Positions 2,046-11,896 of a stretch of 24,000 bases of DNA are shown one piece after another. Source of the stretch: an uncultured Actinomycetota bacterium. Its GTDB lineage: Bacteria; Actinomycetota; Actinomycetes; Mycobacteriales; Jatrophihabitantaceae. Location of the stretch: positions 21,279 to 45,278 of the forward strand of contig CAWBOV010000003.1 in assembly GCA_963790525.1 (NCBI GenBank), given 5' to 3'. How positions within the stretch are numbered: the stretch's first letter is position 1; the number at the start of each line of letters is the position of its first letter. The notes under the pieces are model-generated. The model saw only the letters and a program-made list of their open reading frames with translations, was not told where the DNA came from and did no database searches. The translations under genes and the position numbers were made by a program.

Positions 2046-2124
2046 CGGTAGGTAGGGCCGCAGGGTGGATCGGGCGCCGAGCCGCAGGCGACTTCATATC
2101 CGCTTGGGCGAAAAGGCGGTCGCG

Positions 2125-3180
2125 ATGCCTTCTGATGCTGCGATCAAAGCAGAGGAAACCCTCATTCATGTGCTCTGGATCAATGCCGGGCTCAGCTGCG
2201 ACGGTGACTCGGTCGCGCTCACCGCGGCCACCCAACCGTCCATCGAAGAGATCGCGCTGGGCGCCCTGCCGGGGCTGCCGAAGATCGCGGTGCATTGGCC
2301 ACTGATCGACTTCGAGTGCGGCCCGACCGGGGGCGCCGACGACTTCCTGGAATGGTTCTTCAAGGCCGACCGAGGCGAACTCGAGCCCTTCGTGCTCGTC
2401 GTCGAGGGCTCGATACCCAACGAGGCGCTGCACGAGGAGGGCTACTGGTGCGGGTTCGGCAACGACCCGGCCACCGGTCAGCCCATGACGACCAGCGAGT
2501 GGCTCGATCGGCTCGCCCCGAAGGCGACGGCCATCATCGCCGCGGGCACGTGCGCGACCTACGGTGGAATCCATGCCATGGCCGGTAATCCGACAGGGGC
2601 GATGGGGGTACCGGACTACCTGGGTTGGGACTGGAAGTCGAAGGCCGGCATCCCGATCGTCTGCGTGCCGGGATGCCCGGTGCAGCCGGACAATCTCTCC
2701 GAGACGATCACGTACCTGCTGTACATGGCCACCGGCCAGGCGCCGATGATCCCGCTGGACAACGCGCTCCGTCCGAGCTGGCTGTTCGGCCAGACAGTGC
2801 ACGAGGGGTGCGACCGGGCCGGGTACTACGAGCAGGGTGACTTCGCGACCGAGTACGGCTCGCCGAAGTGCATCGTCAAGCTCGGCTGCTGGGGCCCGGT
2901 CGTGAAGTGCAACGTGCCCAAGCGCGGCTGGCTGAACGGCGTCGGCGGCTGCCCGAACGTCGGCGGGATCTGCATCGGCTGCACCATGCCCGGTTTCCCC
3001 GACAAGTTCATGCCGTTCATGGACGAGCCGCCCGGCAGCAAGGTGTCGGCCACGGCGTCGGGGGTGTACGGCAAGGCGGTCCGTAGCCTGCGCGCGATCA
3101 CGAACAAGACGCTCGACCAGGAACCGAAGTGGCGTGGCCGCGGAGCCGAACTGACCACCGGGGCGACCAGAACCTGGTAG
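2125..3180 (+). CDS. hhyS: [NiFe]-hydrogenase small subunit, group 1h/5 type (no Tat signal)
   Basis: MPSDAAIKAEETLIHVLWINAGLSCDGDSVALTAA..., followed by Fe-S ligand motifs GTCATYGG, CVPGCP, HEGCDR, KLGCWGPVVKCNVP and GGICIGCTMPGFPD. I chose ATG 2125 because the track start at 2065 adds an Arg-rich leader. No RRxFxK twin-arginine leader is present. Confidence 0.9.
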   Translation: MPSDAAIKAEETLIHVLWINAGLSCDGDSVALTAATQPSIEEIALGALPGLPKIAVHWPLIDFECGPTGGADDFLEWFFKADRGELEPFVLVVEGSIPNEALHEEGYWCGFGNDPATGQPMTTSEWLDRLAPKATAIIAAGTCATYGGIHAMAGNPTGAMGVPDYLGWDWKSKAGIPIVCVPGCPVQPDNLSETITYLLYMATGQAPMIPLDNALRPSWLFGQTVHEGCDRAGYYEQGDFATEYGSPKCIVKLGCWGPVVKCNVPKRGWLNGVGGCPNVGGICIGCTMPGFPDKFMPFMDEPPGSKVSATASGVYGKAVRSLRAITNKTLDQEPKWRGRGAELTTGATRTW

Positions 3181-3243: not shown

Positions 3244-5040
3244 ATGACCTCGACCCGCTCCCGCCCGAGCCACGCCAGCGCCGAGGGCTCGGATGGCCTC
3301 GTCGAGATGTCCTGGGATCCCATCACGCGGATCGTGGGCAGTCTCGGCATCTACACAAAGATCGACTTCAAGCAGCGGGTCGTCGCCGAGTGCCACAGCA
3401 CGTCCTCGATCTTCCGCGGGTACTCGATCTTCATGAAGGGCAAGGACCCCCGGGACGCGCACTTCATCACCAGCCGGATCTGCGGGATCTGTGGCGACAA
3501 CCACGCGACGTGCTCGTGCTACGCGCAGAACATGGCCTACGGCGTGAAGCCGCCGCCCATCGGCGAGTGGATCGTGAACCTGGGTGAAGCGGCCGAGTAC
3601 ATGTTCGACCACAACATCTTCCAGGAGAACCTCGTCGGCGTGGACTACTGCGAGAAGATGGTCTCCGAGACGAACCCCGGCGTGCTGGAGCTGGCCAACA
3701 ACACCGAAGCGCCGCATGTGGGCGACCACGGCTACCGGACCATCGGCGACATCATGCGCTCGCTGAATCCGTTCACCGGCGAGTTCTACCGCGAGGCGCT
3801 GCAGGTCAGCCGCTCGACGCGGGAGATGTTCTGCCTCATGGAGGGGCGTCACGTGCACCCGTCCACGCTCTACCCGGGCGGCGTCGGCACGGTCGCGACG
3901 ATCCAGTTGATGACCGACTACATCACCCGGCTGATGCGCTACGTCGAGTTCATGAAGAAGGTCGTGCCGATGCACGACGACCTGTTCGACTTCTTCTACC
4001 AGGCACTGCCGGGCTACGAGCAGGTCGGCCTGCGCCGCACGTTGCTGGCCTGCTGGGGCTCGTTCCAGGACCCCGACTACTGCAACTTCGACTACAAGGA
4101 CATGACCCAGTGGGGCCGCAAGATGTACGTCACGCCGGGCGTCGTGGTCGACGGAAAGCTCGTGACCACGGACCTGGTCGAGATCAACCTGGGCATCCGG
4201 ATCCTGCTCGGCAGCTCCTACTACGACGACTGGGACGGCCAGGAGATCTTCGTCAAGAACGACCCGCTGGGCAATCCGGTCGATCGGCGCCACCCGTGGA
4301 ACCAGCACACCAACCCGCGTCCGCAGAAGCGCGATCTGGACGAGAAGTACAGCTGGGTGATGTCACCGCGGTGGTTCGACGGCAAGGACTATCTCGCGCT
4401 CGACACCGGCGGTGGCCCGCTGGCTCGGCTGTGGTCGACGGCGCTCGCCGGACTGGTCGACATCGGGTACGTGCAGTCGACCGGCAGCAGCGTCAAGATC
4501 AACCTGCCGAAGACGGCGCTGAAGGGTCCGGTCGAGTTCGAGTGGAAGATCCCGCAGTGGAGTAACACGATCGAGCGCAACCGGGCGCGCACGTACTTCC
4601 AGGCGTACGCGGCCGCGTGTGCGCTGCACTTCGCGGAGAAGGCGCTCGTCGAGATCCGGGCCGGCCGCACGAAGACGTGGGAGAAGTTCGAGGTGCCGGA
4701 CGAGGGCATCGGCTGCGGCTTCACCGAGGCCGTCCGCGGCGTGCTGAGCCACCACATGGTGATCAGGGACGGCAAGATCGCGAACTACCACCCGTATCCA
4801 CCGACGCCGTGGAACGCCAACCCGCGCGACTCCTTCGGCACGCCGGGTCCCTACGAGGACGCGGTGCAGGGTCAGCCGATCTTCGAGGAGAACGACCGCG
4901 AGCACTTCAAGGGCATCGACATCATGCGGACCGTGCGCAGCTTCGATCCGTGCCTGCCGTGCGGCGTGCACATGTACCTCGGCGGGGGCGTGACCCTGGA
5001 GGCGCTGCATTCGCCCACGCAGTCCGTCACCGGCGAATGA
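3244..5040 (+). CDS. hhyL: [NiFe]-hydrogenase large subunit, group 1h/5 (high-affinity, actinobacterial type)
   Basis: 598 aa. RBS AGAGAGG is about 8 nt upstream. The N-terminal Ni-Fe ligand motif is TSRICGICGDNH (RICGICGDNH = 3475-3504). The C-terminal motif SFDPCLPCGVH is at 4939-4971, followed by a 22-aa tail (MYLGGGVTLEALHSPTQSVTGE) expected to be removed by the endopeptidase. These motif variants are diagnostic of group 1h/5. Confidence 0.95.
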   Translation: MTSTRSRPSHASAEGSDGLVEMSWDPITRIVGSLGIYTKIDFKQRVVAECHSTSSIFRGYSIFMKGKDPRDAHFITSRICGICGDNHATCSCYAQNMAYGVKPPPIGEWIVNLGEAAEYMFDHNIFQENLVGVDYCEKMVSETNPGVLELANNTEAPHVGDHGYRTIGDIMRSLNPFTGEFYREALQVSRSTREMFCLMEGRHVHPSTLYPGGVGTVATIQLMTDYITRLMRYVEFMKKVVPMHDDLFDFFYQALPGYEQVGLRRTLLACWGSFQDPDYCNFDYKDMTQWGRKMYVTPGVVVDGKLVTTDLVEINLGIRILLGSSYYDDWDGQEIFVKNDPLGNPVDRRHPWNQHTNPRPQKRDLDEKYSWVMSPRWFDGKDYLALDTGGGPLARLWSTALAGLVDIGYVQSTGSSVKINLPKTALKGPVEFEWKIPQWSNTIERNRARTYFQAYAAACALHFAEKALVEIRAGRTKTWEKFEVPDEGIGCGFTEAVRGVLSHHMVIRDGKIANYHPYPPTPWNANPRDSFGTPGPYEDAVQGQPIFEENDREHFKGIDIMRTVRSFDPCLPCGVHMYLGGGVTLEALHSPTQSVTGE

Positions 5041-6012
5041 CCATGCCCGGGCCCGCGACCGCGGCCGACCACGCAGGTCGACCGAGCCAGCCGGCCCAGG
5101 CTGATCAACTGCGAGCCGCGGGGGACCGCATCGAGTCGCTCATCGACGCGTGCGCGACCGGTGGCCCGTCCGCGCGCGCACGGGCCGAGGATCTCGTCGC
5201 GTCGGTGTCGACGCTCTACGGCGCCGGTCTCGGACGGCTGCTCGAGATCCTCGACGAGGCCGGCCGACTCGGGCCGTCCGTGCTCGACGCGCTCGCCGAC
5301 GACGAGCTCGTCTCCGGCCTGCTGCTGGTGCACGACCTGCACCCCTACGACGTCGACACCCGGATCGGGCGCGCGCTGGACAAGGTCCGGCCCTACCTGG
5401 GCACGCACGGCGGCGATGTCGAGCTGCTCGGCATCGACGACGAAGGGGTCGTGCGGCTGCGCCTGCTCGGCAGTTGCGACGGCTGCCCGTCCTCGTCGGT
5501 GACGTTGGAGCTGGCGGTGGAGGGTGCGGTGGCCGCGGCCGCGCCCGAGATGACGCGCATCGAGGTGACCGCAGGCGCGGCGACGAAGGCGCAGCCGGTG
5601 GGAGGCCTGATCACACCCGACTCGCTGCGGTCCCGCATCGACCGGCAGCCGGCGCGCGTCGGCCGACCTGGCGCGTCGCTGCCCGAGCTCGCGGAGCTGG
5701 CGCCGGGCCGACTGGCGGGCTTCGAGTTCGACGGCCTGACGCTCTGCGCCTGCCGCATCGGCAACGACTGTCTACTGTTTCCGCGACCGGTGCGGGCACT
5801 GCGGGCAGAGCCTGGCCGGCAGCGTGATCGAGCGGCGGCTCGGTGACGCGGTCGGTTCCGGCGTGCTGCGGTGCGCCCGCTGCCGTGCGCACTTCGACGT
5901 GCGTCGCGCCGGTGTCGGTCTGGACGACGCCGAGGAGCACCTCGAACCGTTGCCCGTCCTCGTCCGCGACGGCGTCCTGTCCGTGGCGCTCCCGTCCCCA
6001 GCCGTGCCATGA
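5037..6012 (+). pseudogene. hhyE: HhyE-like putative Fe-S protein (NifU-like domain plus Rieske-type Cys/His domain), with the frame broken by one extra nt at about 5769
   Basis: ATG 5037 overlaps the hhyL stop (ATGA); ATG 5043 is an alternative start. Frame 0 gives the NifU-C-like sequence GGDVELLGIDDEGVVRLRLLGSCDGCPSSSVTLE. After ...LCACRIGND the track frame degenerates and stops at 5846. Frame +1 from 5770 instead reads VYCFRDRCGHCGQSLAGS...VLRCARCRAHFDV (C-x-H ... C-x2-H) through to TGA 6010-6012. Confidence 0.7.
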
Positions 6013-6675
6013 GTACCCCGCCGCTGTTCGTCCTGCGGCGCATCGCGCAACGCCCGCCGCCACCTCCGGCCGGCGAGGTGTGCGAGATGTGCGGCGTCGC
6101 GATCGACGAGCACGAGCACGGGCATGTGGTCGACCGGGCGAGCCGATCGCTGATGTGCACCTGCCGCCCGTGCTACCTGCTGTTCACCGCCGAAGGGGCG
6201 GAGCTGCGCTTCCGGGCCGTGCCCGATCGCTACCTCTCCTTCCCCGACTTCCAGCTCGGTCCGGGGCAGTGGGATCAGCTCGAGATCCCGGTCGGGCTGG
6301 CGTTCTTCTTCCACAACTCGACGATGCAGCGGATGGTCGCCTTCTACCCGGGTCCGGCCGGCGCCACCGAGTCCGAACTTCCCTTGGATGCGTGGAGCAC
6401 GGTCACCGCGCAGAATCCCGCAGCTGCGGCTGCTGACCCCCGACGTCGAAGCCCTGCTCGTGCGCACCCCGACCGCGGCAGCGGCGAGGTGAGTTGTCAT
6501 CTCGTCCCGATCGACGTCTGTTACGAGCTGGTCGGCGGGCTGCGCTCGGTGTGGCGGGGTTTCGACGGCGGGCGTGAGGCGCAGCGACCGCATCGACGGG
6601 TTCTTCCGGAAGGTCGCCGAGCGCAGCCGTCCGGCGCCCTCCGTCCTCGCGATGCAGGACGAGGTGGCCCGATGA
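6009..6675 (+). pseudogene. Conserved hydrogenase-cluster protein of unknown function with a Cys-rich N-terminus (recalled as the DUF5947 family, unverified); three frame breaks
   Basis: ATG 6009 overlaps the hhyE stop (ATGA). MSTPPLFVLRRIAQ...CEMCGVAIDEHEHGHVVDRASRSLMCTCRPCYLLF... GC3 and peptide coherence show frame 0 to 6419, an extra nt at about 6420 and frame 1 for QLRLLTPDVEALLVRTP. A 1-nt loss at about 6470 returns to frame 0 for DRGSGEVSCHLVPIDVCYELVGGLRSVWRGFDGGREAQ. An extra c at 6585 then gives frame 1 for DRIDGFFRKVAERSRPAPSVLAMQDEVAR, ending at TGA 6673-6675, which overlaps the next ATG. Confidence 0.6.
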
Positions 6676-7315
6676 CCGCGCTCAGCTTCGCCGTGGCGGA
6701 CGTGTTCGCCGAGCCGTACGCCGTCGCGCCGCAGCTCACCGCCCGCCTGCGCATCGAGGAGTCGACCGGCGCGACGATCCACGCGATCGCGCTGCGCGCC
6801 CAGGTGCGCATCGAACCGCAGCGCCGGCCCTACAGCGCGGACGAGGAGAGCGCTGCTGCTCGACATCTTCGGAACGCGTGACCGGTGGTACGACACGCTG
6901 AAGCCGTTCATGTGGATGCAGGCCGGCGCGATGGTGCAGGGGTTCACCGGCATCACCGAGGTCGACCTGGCATTGCCGTGCACCTATGACTTCGACGTCG
7001 ACCGCGTCGAAGTACCTGCACGCGCTGCGCGACGGCGCGGTCAGCGTGGTGCTCCTGTTCTCCGGGACGGTGTTCATCCGGGGCGAGCGTGGGTTCGGCG
7101 TCGAGCAGGTGCCATGGGATCGCGAAGCCCGCTACGAGATGCCGATCACGGTGTGGCGCGACCTGATCGACCGGTACTTCCCGGGTACCGGCTGGCTGCG
7201 CCTCGATCGCGACCTGATCGAGGCACTGGCGCGCCACAAGGCCGACCACGGCCTCATCTCCTGGGACGAGACGGTGCGGGCGCTGCTGGCCGAGGCGGAC
7301 AGGACGCGGACGTGA
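6672..7315 (+). pseudogene. Conserved hydrogenase-cluster protein of unknown function (recalled as the DUF6084 family, unverified); two frame breaks
   Basis: ATG 6672 (ATGA overlap). Frame 0 reads MTALSFAVADVFAEPYAVAPQLTARLRIEESTGATIHAIALRAQVRIEPQRRPYSADEE. An extra a at 6849 leads to frame 1, ALLLDIFGTRDRWYDTLKPFMWMQAGAMVQGFTGITEVDLALPCTYDFDV. An extra nt at about 7000 leads to frame 2, TASKYLHALRDGAVSVVLLFSGTVFIRGERGFGVEQVPWDREARYEMPITVWRDLIDRYFPGTGWLRLDRDLIEAL...DRTRT, ending at TGA 7313-7315. Confidence 0.6.
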
Positions 7316-8699
7316 AGCCCGCCCCGAGCGCGGCCGAGTACGCCCGTACGGTCGCGGATGCCGTGCTCTACGAGGGGTACCTGCTCTATCCCTACCGGGC
7401 CAGCTCCGGCAAGAACCGGTCCCGCTGGCAGTTCGGCGTGCTCGGTCCGACCGGGGCGGCGTTGTCGGGTCACGGCGAGGACTCCTCGCTGGCATCGCAG
7501 TTCCTGGTGCGCGCACCCGATCCCGCGTCGGCCGCCATCACGCTCGAGCTGCGATTCCTCCACCTGCAGAAGCGCAGCGCCCAGCTGGCCGGAGCGGACG
7601 GCCGGTTCGTCGAGGTCAGCGAGTTGGTGGCCGGCGAGCAGCGCTGGCTGACCTGGGAAGAGGCCGCCGCGCACGAGCATCTCGTGCGGACCGTGGTCGC
7701 TGGCGGCACTGGCCGAGGGCCGGACCGAGCCGATCGAGGTCGCCGCCGGAGCGGAGACGGAGCCGAACCCCGGCAGCACCCCCGCGGCCCGGTTGGTGCG
7801 CAGCCGCCGCCGGCTGCAGGCCGAGCTGGATGTCCGAGCCGAGCCGGTCGGCGGCGACCTCGTCCGCATCTCGATGCAGCGTCACCAACACCACGCCGGA
7901 CGCGGCCGGTGACCACGCTGCGGCGACCGCCGCGTCGTTCCTCGGCGCCCACCTGCTGGTCGAGGTCGAGCACGCCGAGGCACTGTCGATGACCGATCCT
8001 CCCGAGGACGCAGTCGACGCGGCCGGTCGGTGCATCCAGCACCGCTGCTGGCCCGTGCTGGCCGGGCCGGCCGATGACACGTCGCTGGTGCTGGTGTCGC
8101 CGATCATCCTGTACGACCACCCCGAGATCGCCGAGCAGAGCGCCGGTGCGCTGTTCGACTCGACCGAGATCGACGAGATCCTGACCCTGCGGGTGATGAC
8201 CCTGACCGACGAGGAGAAGGCCGCCGCCCGTGCCACCGATCCGCGGGCCGCCGAGATCATCGACCGGTGCGATGCGATGTCGCCGGACGCCATGGCGCAG
8301 CTGCACGGGATCCTCCGCGATCCGCATGCCCTGACCGATGCCGTCGATCCGGCCGGCTCGTTCGGGTTCGACGCCGAGGTGCCCTGGTGGGATCCAGCCG
8401 TCGACGCGAGCGTCTCGCCCGAGACGGACGAGGTCATCGTCGGCGGGGTGGCGGTGTCGGCCGGCAGCATCGTCCGGATCCATCCGTCACGGCGCGCGGA
8501 TGCGCAGGATCTCTTCTTCACCGATCAGGTCGCCCGGGTCGTGGCGGTCCAGTCCGACGTGGACGGCGACACCCACGTCGCTGTGGTTCTTCTCGACGAT
8601 CCGGCCGCCGACCTGCACGAGTGGTACGGCCGGTACCTGTACTTCGCCCCCGACGAACTCGAACCGATGCACGACAACCGAGAGGAGAGCCGATCGTGA
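7312..8699 (+). pseudogene. Conserved hydrogenase-cluster protein of unknown function (about 460 aa); two frame breaks
   Basis: GTG 7312 overlaps the preceding stop (GTGA). Frame 1 reads VKPAPSAAEYARTVADAVLYEGYLLYPYRASSGKNRSRWQFGVLGP...WLTWEEAAAHEHLVRTV. An extra nt at about 7696 leads to frame 2, SLAALAEGRTEPIEVAAGAETEPNPGSTPAARLVRSRRRLQAELDVRAEPVGGDLVRISMQ. An extra c at 7880 leads to frame 0, VTNTTPDAAGDH...ILYDHPEIAEQSAGALFDSTEIDEILTLRVMTLTDEEK...YLYFAPDELEPMHDNREESRS, ending at TGA 8697-8699. Confidence 0.55.
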
Positions 8700-8815
8700 G
8701 AACCGTAGGAATCGCCGCCACCGTACTGGCCGTGGCGGCGGTCGCCGGTGCGGTGGCGCTGGGTGTCACGTCGATACCGGACATCAAGCGCTACCTCAAG
8801 ATGCGCGCGATGTAG
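8696..8815 (+). CDS. Tiny (39-aa) single-pass membrane protein, in a conserved position before the endopeptidase gene
   Basis: GTG 8696 overlaps the preceding stop (GTGA). VRTVGIAATVLAVAAVAGAVALGVTSIPDIKRYLKMRAM has one hydrophobic helix and a basic tail. It is embedded in a longer Arg-rich track ORF (8267..8815) whose upstream part is the shadow of the previous gene. Confidence 0.45.
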   Translation: MRTVGIAATVLAVAAVAGAVALGVTSIPDIKRYLKMRAM

Positions 8816-8829
8816 GAGGACGGCAGCCC

Positions 8830-9360
8830 ATGACCGACCGCGTACTGGTCGCCGGGATCGGAAACATCTTCTTCACCGACGATGGATTCGGCCCAGCGGT
8901 CGTCGAAGCATTGCTCAGCGATGCTGCCCGATGGCCGTTTCCGGCGCCGGTGCGGGTGGTCGACTACGGCATCCGTGGCATGCACCTGAGCTACGACCTC
9001 CTGGCCGGAGTGGGGGCGCTCGTCCTCGTCGATGCGGTGCCGCCCGGGACCGGGCAGACGGCCGTGCCCGGCGCGCTCGTCACGCTGCGGATCGGCCCGC
9101 GCGACATCGCCCACGCACCTGCCGACGTCGACGCGCACAGCATGTCGCCGGTCGCAGTGCTCGCCGGCCTCGCCCCGATGGGTGGCGAAGTCCCGACCAC
9201 GTACCTCGTCGGCTGCATCCCGGCGGACGTGTCCGACGGAATGGGCCTGAGCGAAGCGGTCCGGGCTGCCGTGGCACCGGCGGCCGACCTCGTCCACGAC
9301 CTGGTCGGCCGGTTGCTCATGGAGCGGGAATCAGCCGAACCGATGGCGGCGGGTGGTTGA
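8830..9360 (+). CDS. hupD: [NiFe]-hydrogenase maturation endopeptidase (HupD/HyaD/HybD family)
   Basis: MTDRVLVAGIGNIFFTDDGFGPAVVEAL...VRVVDYGIRGMHLSYDLL...LVLVDAV...DAHSMSPVAVL matches the family's GxGN..xxDDGxG, D and H metal-ligand pattern. The start is internal to track ORF 8338..9360. Confidence 0.85.
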   Translation: MTDRVLVAGIGNIFFTDDGFGPAVVEALLSDAARWPFPAPVRVVDYGIRGMHLSYDLLAGVGALVLVDAVPPGTGQTAVPGALVTLRIGPRDIAHAPADVDAHSMSPVAVLAGLAPMGGEVPTTYLVGCIPADVSDGMGLSEAVRAAVAPAADLVHDLVGRLLMERESAEPMAAGG

Positions 9361-9361
9361 C

Positions 9362-9591
9362 GTGTGTCTCGGAATTCCCGGCCAGGTGGTCGCACGGGTC
9401 GAGGGCTACGGCGATCAACTCGTCCTCGTCGACGTGGTGGGCGCCCAACGACAGATCAACATCGGCATGCTCGACGACGGCGACCAGGCCGCGCTGGCGG
9501 TCGGTGACTGGGTTCTGATCCACATGGGCTTCGCCGTCGAGCGGGTCGACGAGGCCGGGGCGGCGACGGCGATGGCCGGGCTGGAGCTGAT
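9362..9591 (+). CDS. hypC: HypC/HupF-type hydrogenase assembly chaperone (copy 1); no in-frame stop as sequenced, so it reads into hypF
   Basis: GTG 9362 followed by TGT gives the obligatory (M)CLGIPGQVV N-terminus. ...GDWVLIHMGFAVERVDEAGAATAMAGLEL is typical HypC. The nominal end is set at the TGATG motif (9589-9593). The TGA there is one base out of frame with hypC. Confidence 0.75.
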
Positions 9592-11896
9592 GGGACAGGC
9601 GCGCGAGACGCGTGCACGCCGGCGCTTCCGGGTGCACGGGGTCGTCCAGGGCGTGGGTTTCCGGCCGTTCGTCTACGTGACCGCCACCGAGCTGGAACTG
9701 ACCGGGTCGGTGGCCAACGACGCGGCCGGCGTGAGCATCGAGGTCGAGGGCGAGCCGGCGGCGCTGGCCGAGTTCGCCCGCCGGCTCGAGCGGGATCCGC
9801 CGCCGCTCGCGATGGTCGAATCCGTCGAGTCGACCGAGCTCGAGGTGCTCGGGGGGACCGGGTTCGTCATCGAGGGCAGCCGGCCGGATGACCGGGCGCG
9901 CACCCTGGCCTCGCCGGACGTCGCCACGTGTGCCGACTGCCTGAGCGGAGTTCGCCGATCCGTGGCGACCGCCGGTACCGCCACCCGTTCATCACCTGCA
10001 CCAACTGCGGCCCGCGCTTCACGATCATCACCGAGCTGCCTTACGACCGGGCGGCCACGACGATGGCCGACTTCGCCCTGTGCGACGCCTGCAGGGCCGA
10101 GTACGCGGACCCGGCGGACCGGCGCTTCCACGCCCAGCCGATCGGCTGCCACGACTGCGGTCCGGTACTGGAGTTCCGCGACCGGCACGGCGGCACCGCG
10201 ACGGGTCCCGCGGCGCTGCGGACCGCGCGCGCCGCGTTGCGTGCGGGCGCGATCGTCGCCGTGAAGGGACTCGGCGGTTACCACCTGGCCTGCGACGCCG
10301 GCGACGACCTGCGGTGACCGAGCTGCGGCGCCGCAAGGGCCGCGGTCGGCAAGCCGTTCGCCCTCATGGTCGCCGACCTGGCCGTGGCCCGTGAGCTCGT
10401 GGAGATCGACGACGGAGGAGCAGGCGCTGCTGACCGGCGCTCGGCGGCCGATCGTCCTGCTGGCCCGGCGCCCCGAGGCCGCCGGGCCGGTGGCCGCGTC
10501 GGTGGCCCCGGGCACCCCGGATCTCGGGCTGATGCTGCCCTACACGCCGTTGCACCACCTGCTGTTCGGACTCGACGGTGATGACGCCGGACCGCGGGTG
10601 CTCGTGATGACCTCGGGCAACCTCGGCGGGGAACCGATCGTCACCGACGACGAGGACGCGGTGTCACGCCTGGCGGAACTGGCCGACGGCTGGCTATGGC
10701 ACGACCGGCCGATCGAGGTGCCGTGCGACGACTCGGTCGTGCGCATCGTCGACGGGGCGGAGATGGCGGTCCGGCGCTCCCGCGGTTACGCGCCCCTGCC
10801 GATCGCGCTGCCGTTCCCGGTCGCCCCGCTCCTCGCGGTCGGCGCCGACCTGAAGAGCACCTGCTGCGTGGCCGAAGGGCGCTACGCGTGGCTCAGCCAG
10901 CACGTCGGTGACATGGACGACCTGGCGACCCTGGATGCGTTCACGCACGCGGAACTGCACCTGGAGATGCTCACCGGTGTGACGCCCGAGCGCGTGGTCG
11001 CCGACGCGCCATCCGGGCTACCGCTCGAGCCGTCTGGGCACGGAGCCACGCCGCTGGACGGCCGGTCGAGACCGTCCAGCACCATCACGCCCACATCGCG
11101 TCGGTGATGGCCGAACACGGACTGGACGGCAGCGCCCCGGTCATCGGCATTGCCTTCGACGGGACGGGGTACGGCGACGACGGCGCGGTCTGGGGCGGTG
11201 AAGTGCTCGTCGCCGACTACAAGCAGTACCGCCGAGCGACCCACCTCGCCTACGTGCCGCTGGCCGGCGGCGATGCGAGCGTCGAACGTCCGTACCGGAT
11301 GGCGCTGTCGCACCTGCGAGCGGCCGGCATCGAGTGGGCCGACGACCTGCCGTGCGTCGCCGCCTGCCCGGCCGCGGAGCGCGACGTGCTGGGCCACCAG
11401 TTCGAGACCGGCTTCGGCTGCACGCCGACCTCGAGCATGGGCCGGCTCTTCGACGCGGTCGCCTCCGTGCTCGGAGTCCGTCAGCGCGTCGACTACGAAG
11501 CGCAGGCCGCGATCGAGCTGGAGGGTCTGGCCCGCTCCGCTGGCGCCGTGCAGCGGCTACCGGTTCGGTACGGATCCCGCCGGCTACGTCGACGCTTCCC
11601 CCGTTCTCCGCGCGCTCGTGCGCGACCAGCGCACCGGGGTCGCTACGGGCGAGATCGCGGGGCGCTTCCACCAGGGCGTCGCCGACCTGATCGCCGAGGT
11701 CGCCGTGCGTGAACGCGCGAACACCGGTATCGGCACCGTCGTGCTGGGCGGCGGCGTCTTCCAGAACGTGGTGCTGCTGTCGAGCGCGCGCCGGCTGCTG
11801 CGTGACGCCGGGTTCGCCGTGCTGGTGCCGTCGCGGCTGCCGCCGAACGACGGCGGTCTGGCGCTGGGACAACTCATGATCGCCGCGACGAGGTAG
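9590..11896 (+). pseudogene. hypF: Carbamoyltransferase HypF (CN-ligand synthesis), frame broken at about 8 single-nt indels
   Basis: Acylphosphatase domain: MGQARETRARRRFRVHGVVQGVGFRPFVY. Zn fingers: CADCLS|EFADP|[22 protein letters not shown]...[28 protein letters not shown]. YrdC-like region: [23 protein letters not shown]|GKPFALMVAD...EIDD|EEQALLTGARRPIVLL. Kae1-like region: HPGYRSS|VWARSHAAGRPVETVQHHHAHIASVMAEHG...GGGVFQN...PPNDGGLALGQ. Frame switches lie at 9947(+1), 9963(+1), about 10309(-1), 10347(+1), 10414(+1), 11009(+1), 11031(+1) and about 11548(+1). The stop is TAG 11894-11896. Confidence 0.88.

What the first reader, a model, noticed from the sequence alone, without database searches (positions are those of the whole stretch)
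6009..8815. Four translationally coupled genes of unknown function embedded between the hydrogenase and its protease
Three mid-sized proteins and a 39-aa membrane peptide sit between hhyE and the endopeptidase. All are linked by 4-nt overlaps, implying stoichiometric co-expression with the enzyme. None carries a motif of known Hyp maturation factors. The first has a metal-site-like CEMCG...HEHGH...CTCRPC cluster. The third (about 460 aa) has an acidic C-terminal half with a PEIAEQSAGALFDSTEIDEILTLRVMTLTDEEK block. To my knowledge, the roles of this module in group 1h hydrogenases have not been defined experimentally. Possible roles include O2-insensitivity, membrane or quinone coupling, and assembly. 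It is the best candidate in the window for uncharacterized biology attached to a known enzyme.
Basis: partly seen in the sequence, partly recalled or inferred. Interest (0 to 1): 0.6.

Follow-up and report, generated by a model that had tools for sequence, protein, structure and literature searches.

The report
Uncharacterised helper genes of air-hydrogen hydrogenase
These four genes are this genome's copy of a known but still unexplained helper set. It always accompanies the hydrogenase that soil bacteria use to live on atmospheric hydrogen, and it most likely helps build and position that enzyme. In this assembly three of the four genes are garbled by what look like sequencing errors.

Summary
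The four genes are real. A is DUF5947 (6009-6675), B is DUF6084 (6672-7315), C is a family of about 460 aa with no Pfam model (7312-8699), and D is the 39-aa DUF6893 membrane peptide (8696-8815). The four ATGA/GTGA overlaps from hhyE to D are real.

They carry 3, 2 and 2 single-base frame changes. These are probably consensus errors. About 9% of this genome lies in similar insertion-biased patches, and the stitched proteins are as conserved as intact orthologues. Reads could not be checked.

In 80 related loci the order S-L-E-A-B-C-(D)-protease is constant. In 201 Actinomycetota genomes A, B and D occur only where a group 1h large subunit occurs.

No Pfam, NCBIfam, PDB-sequence or fold match gives a function. 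Natural C-protease, B-C and A-C fusions point to enzyme assembly rather than electron transfer. D is a plausible membrane tether.

The literature already lists this block as conserved hypotheticals (PHG067-069 and MSMEG_2717 onward). This scan has met it at least 21 times on other DNA. It is ordinary for a 1h locus, and its function remains open.

The parts
5037..6012 (+). hhyE (NifU-like plus Rieske-like halves). This is upstream context. It has one frame change at about 5769.
   Evidence: Pfam NifU hit. tblastn with L002 HhyE is split between frame 3 (to 5768) and frame 1 (from 5770).
6009..6675 (+). Gene A: DUF5947 protein (PHG067 / MSMEG_2717 type) with an invariant Cys/His cluster. Read through, it is about 222 aa.
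   Evidence: PF19372, 198.7 bits. Frame 3 runs 6009-6414, frame 1 6418-6474, frame 3 6477-6582, and frame 1 6586-6675. C25, C28, H36, H38, C49, C51 and C54 are invariant, including in C. necator.
6672..7315 (+). Gene B: DUF6084 protein (PHG068 type), about 213 aa when stitched.
   Evidence: PF19562 profile positions 1-61 (frame 3), 58-110 (frame 1) and 109-211 (frame 2). tblastn gives three HSPs.
7312..8699 (+). Gene C: a protein of about 460 aa with no Pfam family (PHG069 type). It has an N-terminal YEGYLLYPYR motif, a beta-sandwich, a conserved acidic block and a C-terminal SH3-like barrel.
   Evidence: tblastn pieces lie at 7321-7686 (frame 1), 7679-7870 (frame 2) and 7881-8669 (frame 3). 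AF2 model of the orthologue L011 has pLDDT 80. The family has 4549 representatives at 50% identity.
8696..8815 (+). Gene D: 39-aa DUF6893 peptide, intact. It has one hydrophobic helix followed by the basic tail SIPDIKRYLKMRAM.
   Evidence: PF21833, 56.2 bits. A D-like peptide follows C in at least 64 of 80 loci.
8830..9360 (+). HycI/HupD-type maturation endopeptidase. This is downstream context and the fusion partner of C in other lineages.
   Evidence: PF01750 hit. Junction sequence. C-HycI fusions.
6410..6420 (+). Frame change in A (+1; AATCCCGCAG has one base too many).
6470..6480 (+). Frame change in A (-1).
6578..6588 (+). Frame change in A (+1).
6848..6858 (+). Frame change in B (+1).
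6996..7004 (+). Frame change in B (+1; GTC G ACC).
7674..7682 (+). Frame change in C (+1; GAG C ATC).
7870..7882 (+). Frame change in C (+1; CAG C GTC).

Best explanation
The stretch holds the standard accessory set of an actinobacterial group 1h (Hhy-type) [NiFe]-hydrogenase. It comprises DUF5947, DUF6084, an unnamed three-domain protein of about 460 aa, and the DUF6893 single-pass membrane peptide. It sits between hhyE and the maturation endopeptidase.

Shown:
- The genes are conserved and specific to 1h loci.
- They are joined by conserved 4-nt overlaps.
- They match no characterised family.
- In other lineages they occur fused to each other and to the protease.

Inferred:
- A, B and C form a hydrogenase-specific assembly complex. 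It acts at or around the protease step, which is processing of the large subunit and joining with the Fe-S small subunit in air.
- A contributes a Cys6His2 metal site.
- They are helpers, not stable subunits or the electron acceptor (about 0.55).
- D, through its conserved basic cytoplasmic tail, tethers either the finished enzyme or this assembly complex to the membrane (about 0.4).

The seven frame changes in this copy are most likely consensus errors of the assembly (about 0.8), so the organism probably has working genes.
For: - Identity: Pfam hits. Orthologues are intact and collinear in 9 relatives and 80 further loci.
- Specificity in a 201-genome phylum sample: DUF5947 is in 25 and DUF6084 in 26 sampled genomes besides G000. 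All of these have a 1h HhyL of at least 63% identity. Neither family occurs without one. DUF6893 is in 20 of them and nowhere else above cut-off.
- Cross-phylum: C. necator pHG1 has S, L, NifU, DUF5947, DUF6084, a 476-aa hypothetical, then the protease.
- Assembly role: 7 of the top 150 representatives of the C family are C-HycI protease fusions. One is a B-C fusion with 28 members on many contigs. One is an A-C fusion. One C-protease fusion lies in a bona fide S-L-x-A-B-[C-protease]-D locus.
- Not stable subunits: the only 1h structure in the PDB (5AA5) comes with no A, B or C homologue, and none is found anywhere in the PDB.
- The most conserved block of C has low pLDDT, as expected for a segment that folds on a partner.
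- The accessory proteins evolve much faster than HhyL: 63-77% versus 92-95% identity.
- D as tether: M. smegmatis Hhy is found only in the membrane fraction and resists 5% cholate, although it has no TM segment (10.1101/769216). The C. necator locus has no D, and its enzyme is described as cytoplasmic (PMC7174314).
- Errors rather than decay: 123 of about 1390 3-kb bins genome-wide are frame-switch storms with a +1 bias (530 versus 278). The rest show no bias (920 versus 989). An unrelated ABC transporter is broken in the same way. The stitched proteins are as similar to L002 as the intact orthologues of L003 and L004.
Against: - No biochemical or genetic data exist for A-D.
- Fusion and neighbourhood evidence shows partnership, not activity.
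- A carries eight invariant Cys/His. It could be a redox protein, as Schafer et al. proposed for PHG067 (cited in PMC6883350).
- The membrane-associated Methylacidiphilum 1h enzyme is reported with hhyS-hhyL-hupD adjacent and no such genes between them (PMC5364354). The set is therefore not universal for 1h function or membrane binding.
- D is not found in 5 of 25 sampled 1h genomes.
No second assembly of this species exists in the protein collection; the nearest is 82% identical.
- Most of the indels are not in homopolymers.
Confidence: 0.55

Rival explanations
1. Electron-transfer or quinone-coupling module. A is an Fe-S protein that takes electrons from HhyS/HhyE. Together with B, C and the membrane peptide D it relays them to menaquinone, playing the part that cytochrome b or HucM plays for other hydrogenases.
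For: A has invariant C-x2-C, H-x-H and C-x-C-x2-C motifs plus a further Cys, across phyla. PHG067 and MSMEG_2717 have been suggested as the electron acceptor (PMC6883350). Hhy lacks a known membrane or quinone partner. D is a TM peptide. The C-terminal barrel of C resembles PetP, a peripheral subunit of cytochrome b6f (TM 0.65-0.76 on the target).
Against: No Fe-S, ferredoxin, Rieske or cytochrome family is hit by A-D. C is repeatedly fused to the maturation protease, not to redox domains. No A-C homologue is present in any PDB entry, including the 5AA5 enzyme. A locus with an A-C fusion plus protease lies away from any structural genes. The proteins evolve fast relative to HhyL. The SH3-like fold is generic.
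Confidence: 0.2
2. The module, together with hhyE and hypF, is truly pseudogenised in this organism. On this view a recent burst of small indels has inactivated the accessory genes while hhySL stays intact.
For: Eight frame changes lie within 5769-7875 while hhyS and hhyL (2.9 kb) have none. Most indels are not in homopolymers. An earlier first-reader note describes the storm as running to about 11551 with intact flanks (e1-2456300).
Against: There are only single-base indels. There is no nonsense codon in the stitched frames and no larger deletion. Divergence does not exceed that of intact orthologues. The strong +1 (insertion) bias is opposite to the usual deletional bias of bacterial gene decay. 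Similar storms cover about 9% of the genome, including an ABC transporter. The genome is 89.8% complete in only 7 contigs, as expected of a long-read MAG with broken marker genes.
Confidence: 0.12
3. The set protects or repairs the enzyme under O2 (for example Fe-S cluster repair with the NifU-like HhyE) rather than building it de novo.
For: It is always adjacent to a NifU-domain protein. A has a Cys/His metal site. The set is restricted to an O2-insensitive hydrogenase class.
Against: Nothing distinguishes this from assembly. The fusions to the endopeptidase, a one-time maturation enzyme, point to biogenesis.
Confidence: 0.1

Closest known systems
PHG067-PHG069 region of the actinobacterial-type hydrogenase (AH, hofKG) cluster on Cupriavidus necator H16 megaplasmid pHG1 (H16_RS31855, RS31860, RS31865)
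   Same: The order is the same: small subunit, large subunit, NifU protein, DUF5947, DUF6084, a hypothetical of about 476 aa, then the protease. The overlaps are also present. The L011 orthologue of C is 35.5% identical over 96% of its length to the C. necator C. The Cys/His motif of A is invariant.
   Different: C. necator has no DUF6893 peptide, because C overlaps the protease start directly. Its NifU protein (192 aa) lacks the Rieske-like half. Its enzyme is reported as cytoplasmic and low-affinity (PMC7174314).
M. smegmatis hhy cluster genes downstream of hhyE (MSMEG_2717 onward; called conserved hypotheticals, and hhaABC in some accounts)
   Same: Mycobacterial loci fetched here (for example Mycolicibacterium septicum, L028) show the same S-L-E-A-B-C-D-protease order. 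MSMEG_2717 is stated to be homologous to PHG067 (PMC6883350).
   Different: The M. smegmatis record itself was not fetched. The hhaABC naming comes from memory and from earlier scan notes, not from a paper read here. One paper uses hha names for Hyp homologues instead (PMC5364354).
Accessory genes of O2-tolerant membrane-bound hydrogenases (hoxLOQRTV / hyaEF / hupGHIJK)
   Same: They occupy the same operon niche between the structural genes and the hyp genes. They too are enzyme-specific helpers for building a [NiFe]-hydrogenase in air.
   Different: There is no sequence, profile or fold similarity. The 1h small subunit has no Tat leader, so Tat proofreading chaperones are not expected. This is an analogy only.
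HucM of the group 2a hydrogenase Huc (PMC10017518)
   Same: It is a small operon-encoded partner that links a cytosolic, O2-insensitive, high-affinity hydrogenase to the membrane and quinone pool. This is the role proposed here for D, perhaps with C.
   Different: No homology was detected. HucM is a stable structural subunit seen in the cryo-EM complex, whereas nothing comparable has been shown for A-D.

Membership tests
Pfam DUF5947 (PF19372) | Match to the family HMM above the gathering score (25 bits) | tested here: met
   198.7 bits, profile positions 2-164 of 177, in frame 3 of 6009-6878. The last 13 positions lie in another frame.
Pfam DUF5947 (PF19372) | Invariant C-x2-C ... H-x-H ... 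C-x-C-x2-C cluster | tested here: met
   The window reads CEMCGVAIDEHEHGHVVDRASRSLMCTCRPC. The columns are invariant in 74 sequences and in C. necator.
Pfam DUF5947 (PF19372) | One uninterrupted ORF of about 205-245 aa | tested here: not met
   There are three frame changes at about 6415, 6475 and 6583. They are probably assembly errors.
Pfam DUF6084 (PF19562) | Match to the family HMM above the gathering score, over the full length | tested here: met
   Profile positions 1-61, 58-110 and 109-211 are all present but lie in three frames (66.2, 62.8 and 152.2 bits).
Pfam DUF6893 (PF21833) | HMM match above 24.6 bits, one hydrophobic helix and a basic C-terminal tail | tested here: met
   56.2 bits, profile positions 1-32 of 32. 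The sequence has a hydrophobic stretch of about 21 residues followed by SIPDIKRYLKMRAM.
PHG069-type protein (gene C; no Pfam model) | Collinear homology to the C. necator and actinobacterial ~430-510 aa proteins, including the N-terminal YEGY.LYPY motif, the acidic TEIDE.L.L block and the C-terminal barrel | tested here: met
   Three tblastn pieces cover residues 3-469 of L002 C at 44-71% identity. The motifs are conserved in a cross-phylum alignment.
Group 1h hydrogenase accessory gene set | Position between hhyE and the maturation protease, downstream of hhyS-hhyL | tested here: met
   The window order is S-L-E-A-B-C-D-protease. The same order holds in 80 of 80 loci where the contig allows.
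Group 1h hydrogenase accessory gene set | Occurs only together with a 1h large subunit | tested here: met
   In the 201-genome sample there are no DUF5947, DUF6084 or DUF6893 hits above cut-off in genomes without a 1h HhyL.
Known [NiFe] maturation factors (HypA-F, HupF/HypC, HyaE/F, HupH, HupK, rubredoxin HoxR) | Significant match to the corresponding Pfam or NCBIfam models, or to solved structures | tested here: not met
   No such hit for A-D or their intact orthologues. Foldseek and PDB profile searches were negative.
Fe-S electron-transfer proteins (ferredoxin, Rieske, HybA-type, cytochrome b) | Recognised cluster-binding family signature or fold | tested here: not met
   No family hit. The Cys/His region of A is modelled with low confidence and has no structural neighbour. 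The metal content cannot be tested in silico.

The most novel reading that the evidence does not exclude
A, B and C form a dedicated chaperone complex that presents the nickel-loaded large subunit to the endopeptidase and joins it to the small subunit. The 39-residue DUF6893 peptide is the long-sought membrane anchor of actinobacterial Hhy. That would explain its detergent-resistant membrane binding and, indirectly, why membrane-bound 1h enzymes scavenge atmospheric H2 while the peptide-less cytoplasmic C. necator enzyme does not.
Probability: 0.25. Interest if true: 0.6.

Novelty: new member of a known kind. Interest (0 to 1): 0.28.

Why it matters
Group 1h hydrogenases are the main biological sink for atmospheric H2 and are wanted as air-stable catalysts. 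Two things remain unresolved: how they are assembled in air, and how they connect to the membrane. Knowing which helpers are needed limits heterologous production.

The helper set is very large. The C family alone has 4549 representatives at 50% identity, none has a name, and there is no Pfam model. No function is known for any member.

This particular copy adds no new biology, and its sequence is damaged. The comparative results do sharpen testable hypotheses for work in M. smegmatis or C. necator. Those results are strict co-occurrence with 1h, fusions to the protease, and a membrane peptide that is present in Actinomycetota but absent from the cytoplasmic C. necator system.

Tried and rejected
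- Pfam and NCBIfam at lenient thresholds gave only DUF names. A sub-threshold Phage_TAC_7 hit on the acidic block of C (E 0.002, below cut-off) was not used as evidence.
- hhalign among A, B and C showed no internal homology.
- PDB sequence and profile searches found nothing.
- Foldseek of the A model found nothing (best E 0.15).
- Foldseek of the C model gave a DrmA hit (E 2e-5) with TM 0.22/0.09 and rmsd 25 A. I rejected it as uninterpretable. Only the small C-terminal barrel has neighbours (PetP, BAH, nitrile hydratase beta), and that is a generic SH3-like fold.
- Apparent C-D fusions in L059 and L078 were an artefact of my ORF extension. An in-frame TGA separates the two genes.
- GC-biased coverage as the cause of the frame-change storms is only weakly supported (Spearman 0.19).
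- A search for a second assembly of this species failed. The nearest C protein is 82% identical.
- Literature searches for HhaA/B/C, the DUF names, PHG067/MSMEG_2717 and HhyE found no functional study.


Full report
**What is in the window.** The window has about 70% GC and lies on a 961-kb contig of a 4.18-Mb, 7-contig genome scored 89.8% complete.

The + strand carries these genes:
- hhyS, 2065-3180
- hhyL, 3244-5040
- hhyE, 5037-6012
- the four genes of the finding
- a HycI-type endopeptidase, 8830-9360

Pfam names three of the four genes. A (6009-6675) is DUF5947, B (6672-7315) is DUF6084, and D (8696-8815) is DUF6893. C (7312-8699) hits nothing.

The junctions hhyE/A, A/B, B/C and C/D are ATGA, ATGA, GTGA and GTGA. 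D and the protease do not overlap. D stops with TAG at 8813-8815, a GGAGGA follows, and the protease starts at ATG 8830.

**The frames are broken.** Intact orthologues from relatives (L002, L005) align to the window in pieces that change frame:
- hhyE at 5769
- A at about 6415, 6475 and 6583
- B at about 6852 and 7000
- C at about 7678 and 7875

Pfam confirms this independently. DUF6084 positions 1-61, 58-110 and 109-211 lie in three different frames. All the changes are single-base events. Six of the seven inside the finding are +1, and most are not in homopolymers. In nine relatives every one of these genes is one HSP in one frame, apart from one split C in L010.

**Error or decay.** I built a codon-position GC model and segmented the whole genome.
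- It recovers the known breaks in the window.
- 123 of about 1390 3-kb bins hold five or more same-strand frame switches.
- In those bins +1 steps outnumber -1 steps 530 to 278. Elsewhere the counts are 920 to 989.
- One such patch on another contig breaks an ABC transporter. Its ABC_tran domain is split over frames.
- The link to GC content is weak.

The stitched window proteins are as similar to L002 as the intact orthologues of two sibling genera:

| Protein | Window vs L002 | L003 / L004 vs L002 |
|---|---|---|
| HhyL | 94% | 93-95% |
| E | 75% | 74-77% |
| A | 73% | 73-77% |
| B | 75% | 72-73% |
| C | 67% | 63-64% |

So the pattern is single-base indels only, with an insertion bias, no excess divergence, and a patchy genome-wide spread. 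I read the breaks as consensus errors, with probability about 0.8. No second assembly of the species is in the protein collection; the nearest C is 82% identical.

**Conservation and specificity.** The best 80 are almost all Actinomycetota, including Mycobacterium, Rhodococcus, Arthrobacter, Nocardioides and many soil MAGs.
- In all of them the order is S-L-E-A-B-C-(D)-protease.
- The 4-nt overlap is kept at E/A in 44 of about 70 loci, at A/B in 54 of 76, and at B/C in 71 of 79.
- A D-like peptide follows C in at least 64 of 80 loci.

I also searched an evenly drawn sample of 201 Actinomycetota genomes.
- A 1h-type HhyL (at least 63% identity) occurs in 26, plus one fragment.
- DUF6084 occurs in the same 26.
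- DUF5947 occurs in 25 of them.
- DUF6893 occurs in 20.
- None of the three occurs above cut-off in a genome without 1h, and none in the 14 control genomes.

The one 1h genome without DUF5947 (G161) has a locus in which the NifU half of HhyE runs through an Arg-Asp repeat straight into B. It has neither the Rieske-like half nor A.

Outside the phylum, C. necator pHG1 and Methylocystis plasmids carry A, B and C. In C. necator the C gene overlaps the protease start directly, and there is no D. For Methylacidiphilum, a paper lists hhyS, hhyL and hupD as consecutive locus tags (PMC5364354). The set is therefore probably not universal among 1h enzymes, but I did not check that genome myself.

**What the proteins look like.**

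*Protein A.* C25, C28, H36, H38, C49, C51 and C54 are invariant in 74 actinobacterial sequences. They remain invariant when C. necator and two divergent clades are added. C170 is invariant in the 74 and appears conserved in the full-length distant sequences. The AF2 model (pLDDT 80) has a confident alpha/beta domain (residues 70-205) and a poorly modelled Cys/His region. Foldseek finds no neighbour in the PDB, with a best E of 0.15.

*Protein B.* It has no conserved metal ligands.

*Protein C.* The AF2 model (pLDDT 80) shows four parts:
- an N-terminal helix bearing the invariant EGYLLYPYR...KN..RWQ.G motif
- a confident beta-sandwich (residues 54-262)
- the family's most conserved stretch, which is acidic (SPIILYDHPE...DSTEIDEILTLRVMT.TDEEK...) and has low pLDDT
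- a C-terminal SH3-like barrel

The only structural neighbours of the barrel are PetP, BAH domains and nitrile hydratase beta. The C family has 4549 representatives at 50% identity (E up to 0.001). At least 8000 clusters at 90% identity match, and every one that carries a name is called 'hypothetical protein'.

*Protein D.* It has a hydrophobic helix of about 21 residues and then a conserved basic tail, (S/A)(I/L)PD.(K/R)RY(L/M)(K/R).R.M. By the positive-inside rule the tail should face the cytoplasm.

hhalign shows no relationship among A, B and C.

**Function.** No database gives one.

The strongest clue is gene fusion. Earlier follow-ups of this scan reported this on other genomes, and I tested it independently.
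- Seven of the best 150 representatives of the C family are 606-682 aa and carry a HycI protease domain after C.
- One is DUF6084 plus C (765 aa).
- One is DUF5947 plus C (623 aa).
- These are not one-off miscalls. The B-C fusion cluster has 28 members from JGI, NCBI, ENA and Logan. Several C-protease clusters have two to four members from independent sources.
- One C-protease fusion sits in a complete locus: hypF, S, L, a 181-aa gene, DUF5947, DUF6084, [C-protease], DUF6893, then hypA, hypC and hypD.
- The A-C fusion, followed by a separate protease, lies away from any structural genes.

The endopeptidase acts once, on the nickel-loaded large subunit. This is established knowledge of [NiFe] maturation. 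A protein repeatedly fused to it is most simply a maturation partner.

Other observations agree with this. The only 1h enzyme in the PDB (5AA5) has no A, B or C homologue, and none exists anywhere in the PDB. The accessory proteins also evolve much faster than HhyL. I therefore favour an assembly complex over an electron relay, at about 0.55 versus 0.2. The eight invariant Cys/His of A keep the relay proposal alive (PHG067 as electron acceptor, cited in PMC6883350).

**The membrane peptide.**
- M. smegmatis Hhy has no TM segment, yet it is found only in the membrane fraction and is not released by 5% cholate (10.1101/769216).
- The R. eutropha enzyme is described as cytoplasmic and low-affinity (PMC7174314), and its locus has no D.
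- D occurs only beside 1h loci.

This makes D a reasonable candidate tether, for the enzyme or for the assembly complex, at about 0.4. It is inference from correlation across two systems. Five sampled 1h genomes lack D.

**About 'stoichiometric co-expression'.** Four-base overlaps account for about 38% of same-strand frame-changing junctions in this genome. An earlier, unchecked first-reader note (e1-2456308) describes the same chain continuing into the protease and hyp genes. The overlaps show coupling within an operon. They do not show that the products are subunits.

**Novelty and score.** The block has Pfam DUF entries. It corresponds to PHG067-069 of C. necator and to MSMEG_2717 onward in M. 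smegmatis, and it has been noted in the literature as conserved hypotheticals (PMC6883350). This scan has already reported it on at least 21 other genomes, with similar conclusions. This copy is an ordinary member and a damaged one. The open question of what the set does is real and worthwhile, but this window does not add to it beyond the comparative evidence gathered here.

Noticed in passing
window 5769-11551 and genome-wide (e.g. G000:C4:299000-306000 = L091): About 9% of the genome lies in patches dense with single-base, insertion-biased frame changes, flanked by clean sequence. The hydrogenase accessory region is one of about 120 such 3-kb bins. In another patch an ABC transporter is broken in the same way. 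This looks like patchy consensus quality in a long-read or hybrid assembly.
   Followed up: partly
window 5037-6012: hhyE is split at 5769 between its NifU-like half and its Rieske-like half by one extra base (GAC T GTC TAC).
   Followed up: yes
L093 (G161:C308:27000-30824): A natural 1h locus in which the NifU half of HhyE continues through an Arg-Asp/Gly-Asp low-complexity linker directly into DUF6084. It has no Rieske-like half and no DUF5947. This may be joint loss of the two Cys-rich modules. The contig ends inside B.
   Followed up: partly
L097 / L098 7001-9339: A DUF5947-C fusion (623 aa, no DUF6084) followed by a separate HycI protease. It sits among unrelated genes (glycosyltransferase, GSDH, pirin, BON) with no hydrogenase structural genes within 7 kb.
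   Followed up: no
L096 7001-9039: In an Acidimicrobiaceae-like metagenome contig C is fused to the protease. The DUF6893 peptide follows the fusion with a 4-nt overlap, so the peptide keeps its place after the C/protease unit even when the order changes. A YceI gene follows.
   Followed up: no
window 8696-8815 and 64 related loci: DUF6893 peptides almost always end in Met immediately before the stop (…R.M*). It is unclear whether this is a constraint on the peptide or on the overlapping or adjacent start signal of the next gene.
   Followed up: no
L059 and L078 (Mycobacterium), end of gene C: C and D are in the same frame, separated only by a TGA, a short AAGGAG spacer and an ATG. My ORF script first read them as a fusion.
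   Followed up: yes
L060, L061, L065, L071, L080, L087: Several long-read soil MAG loci show one isolated frame split in hhyE, hhyL, hhyS or A. These are occasional single errors, unlike the storm in this window.
   Followed up: no
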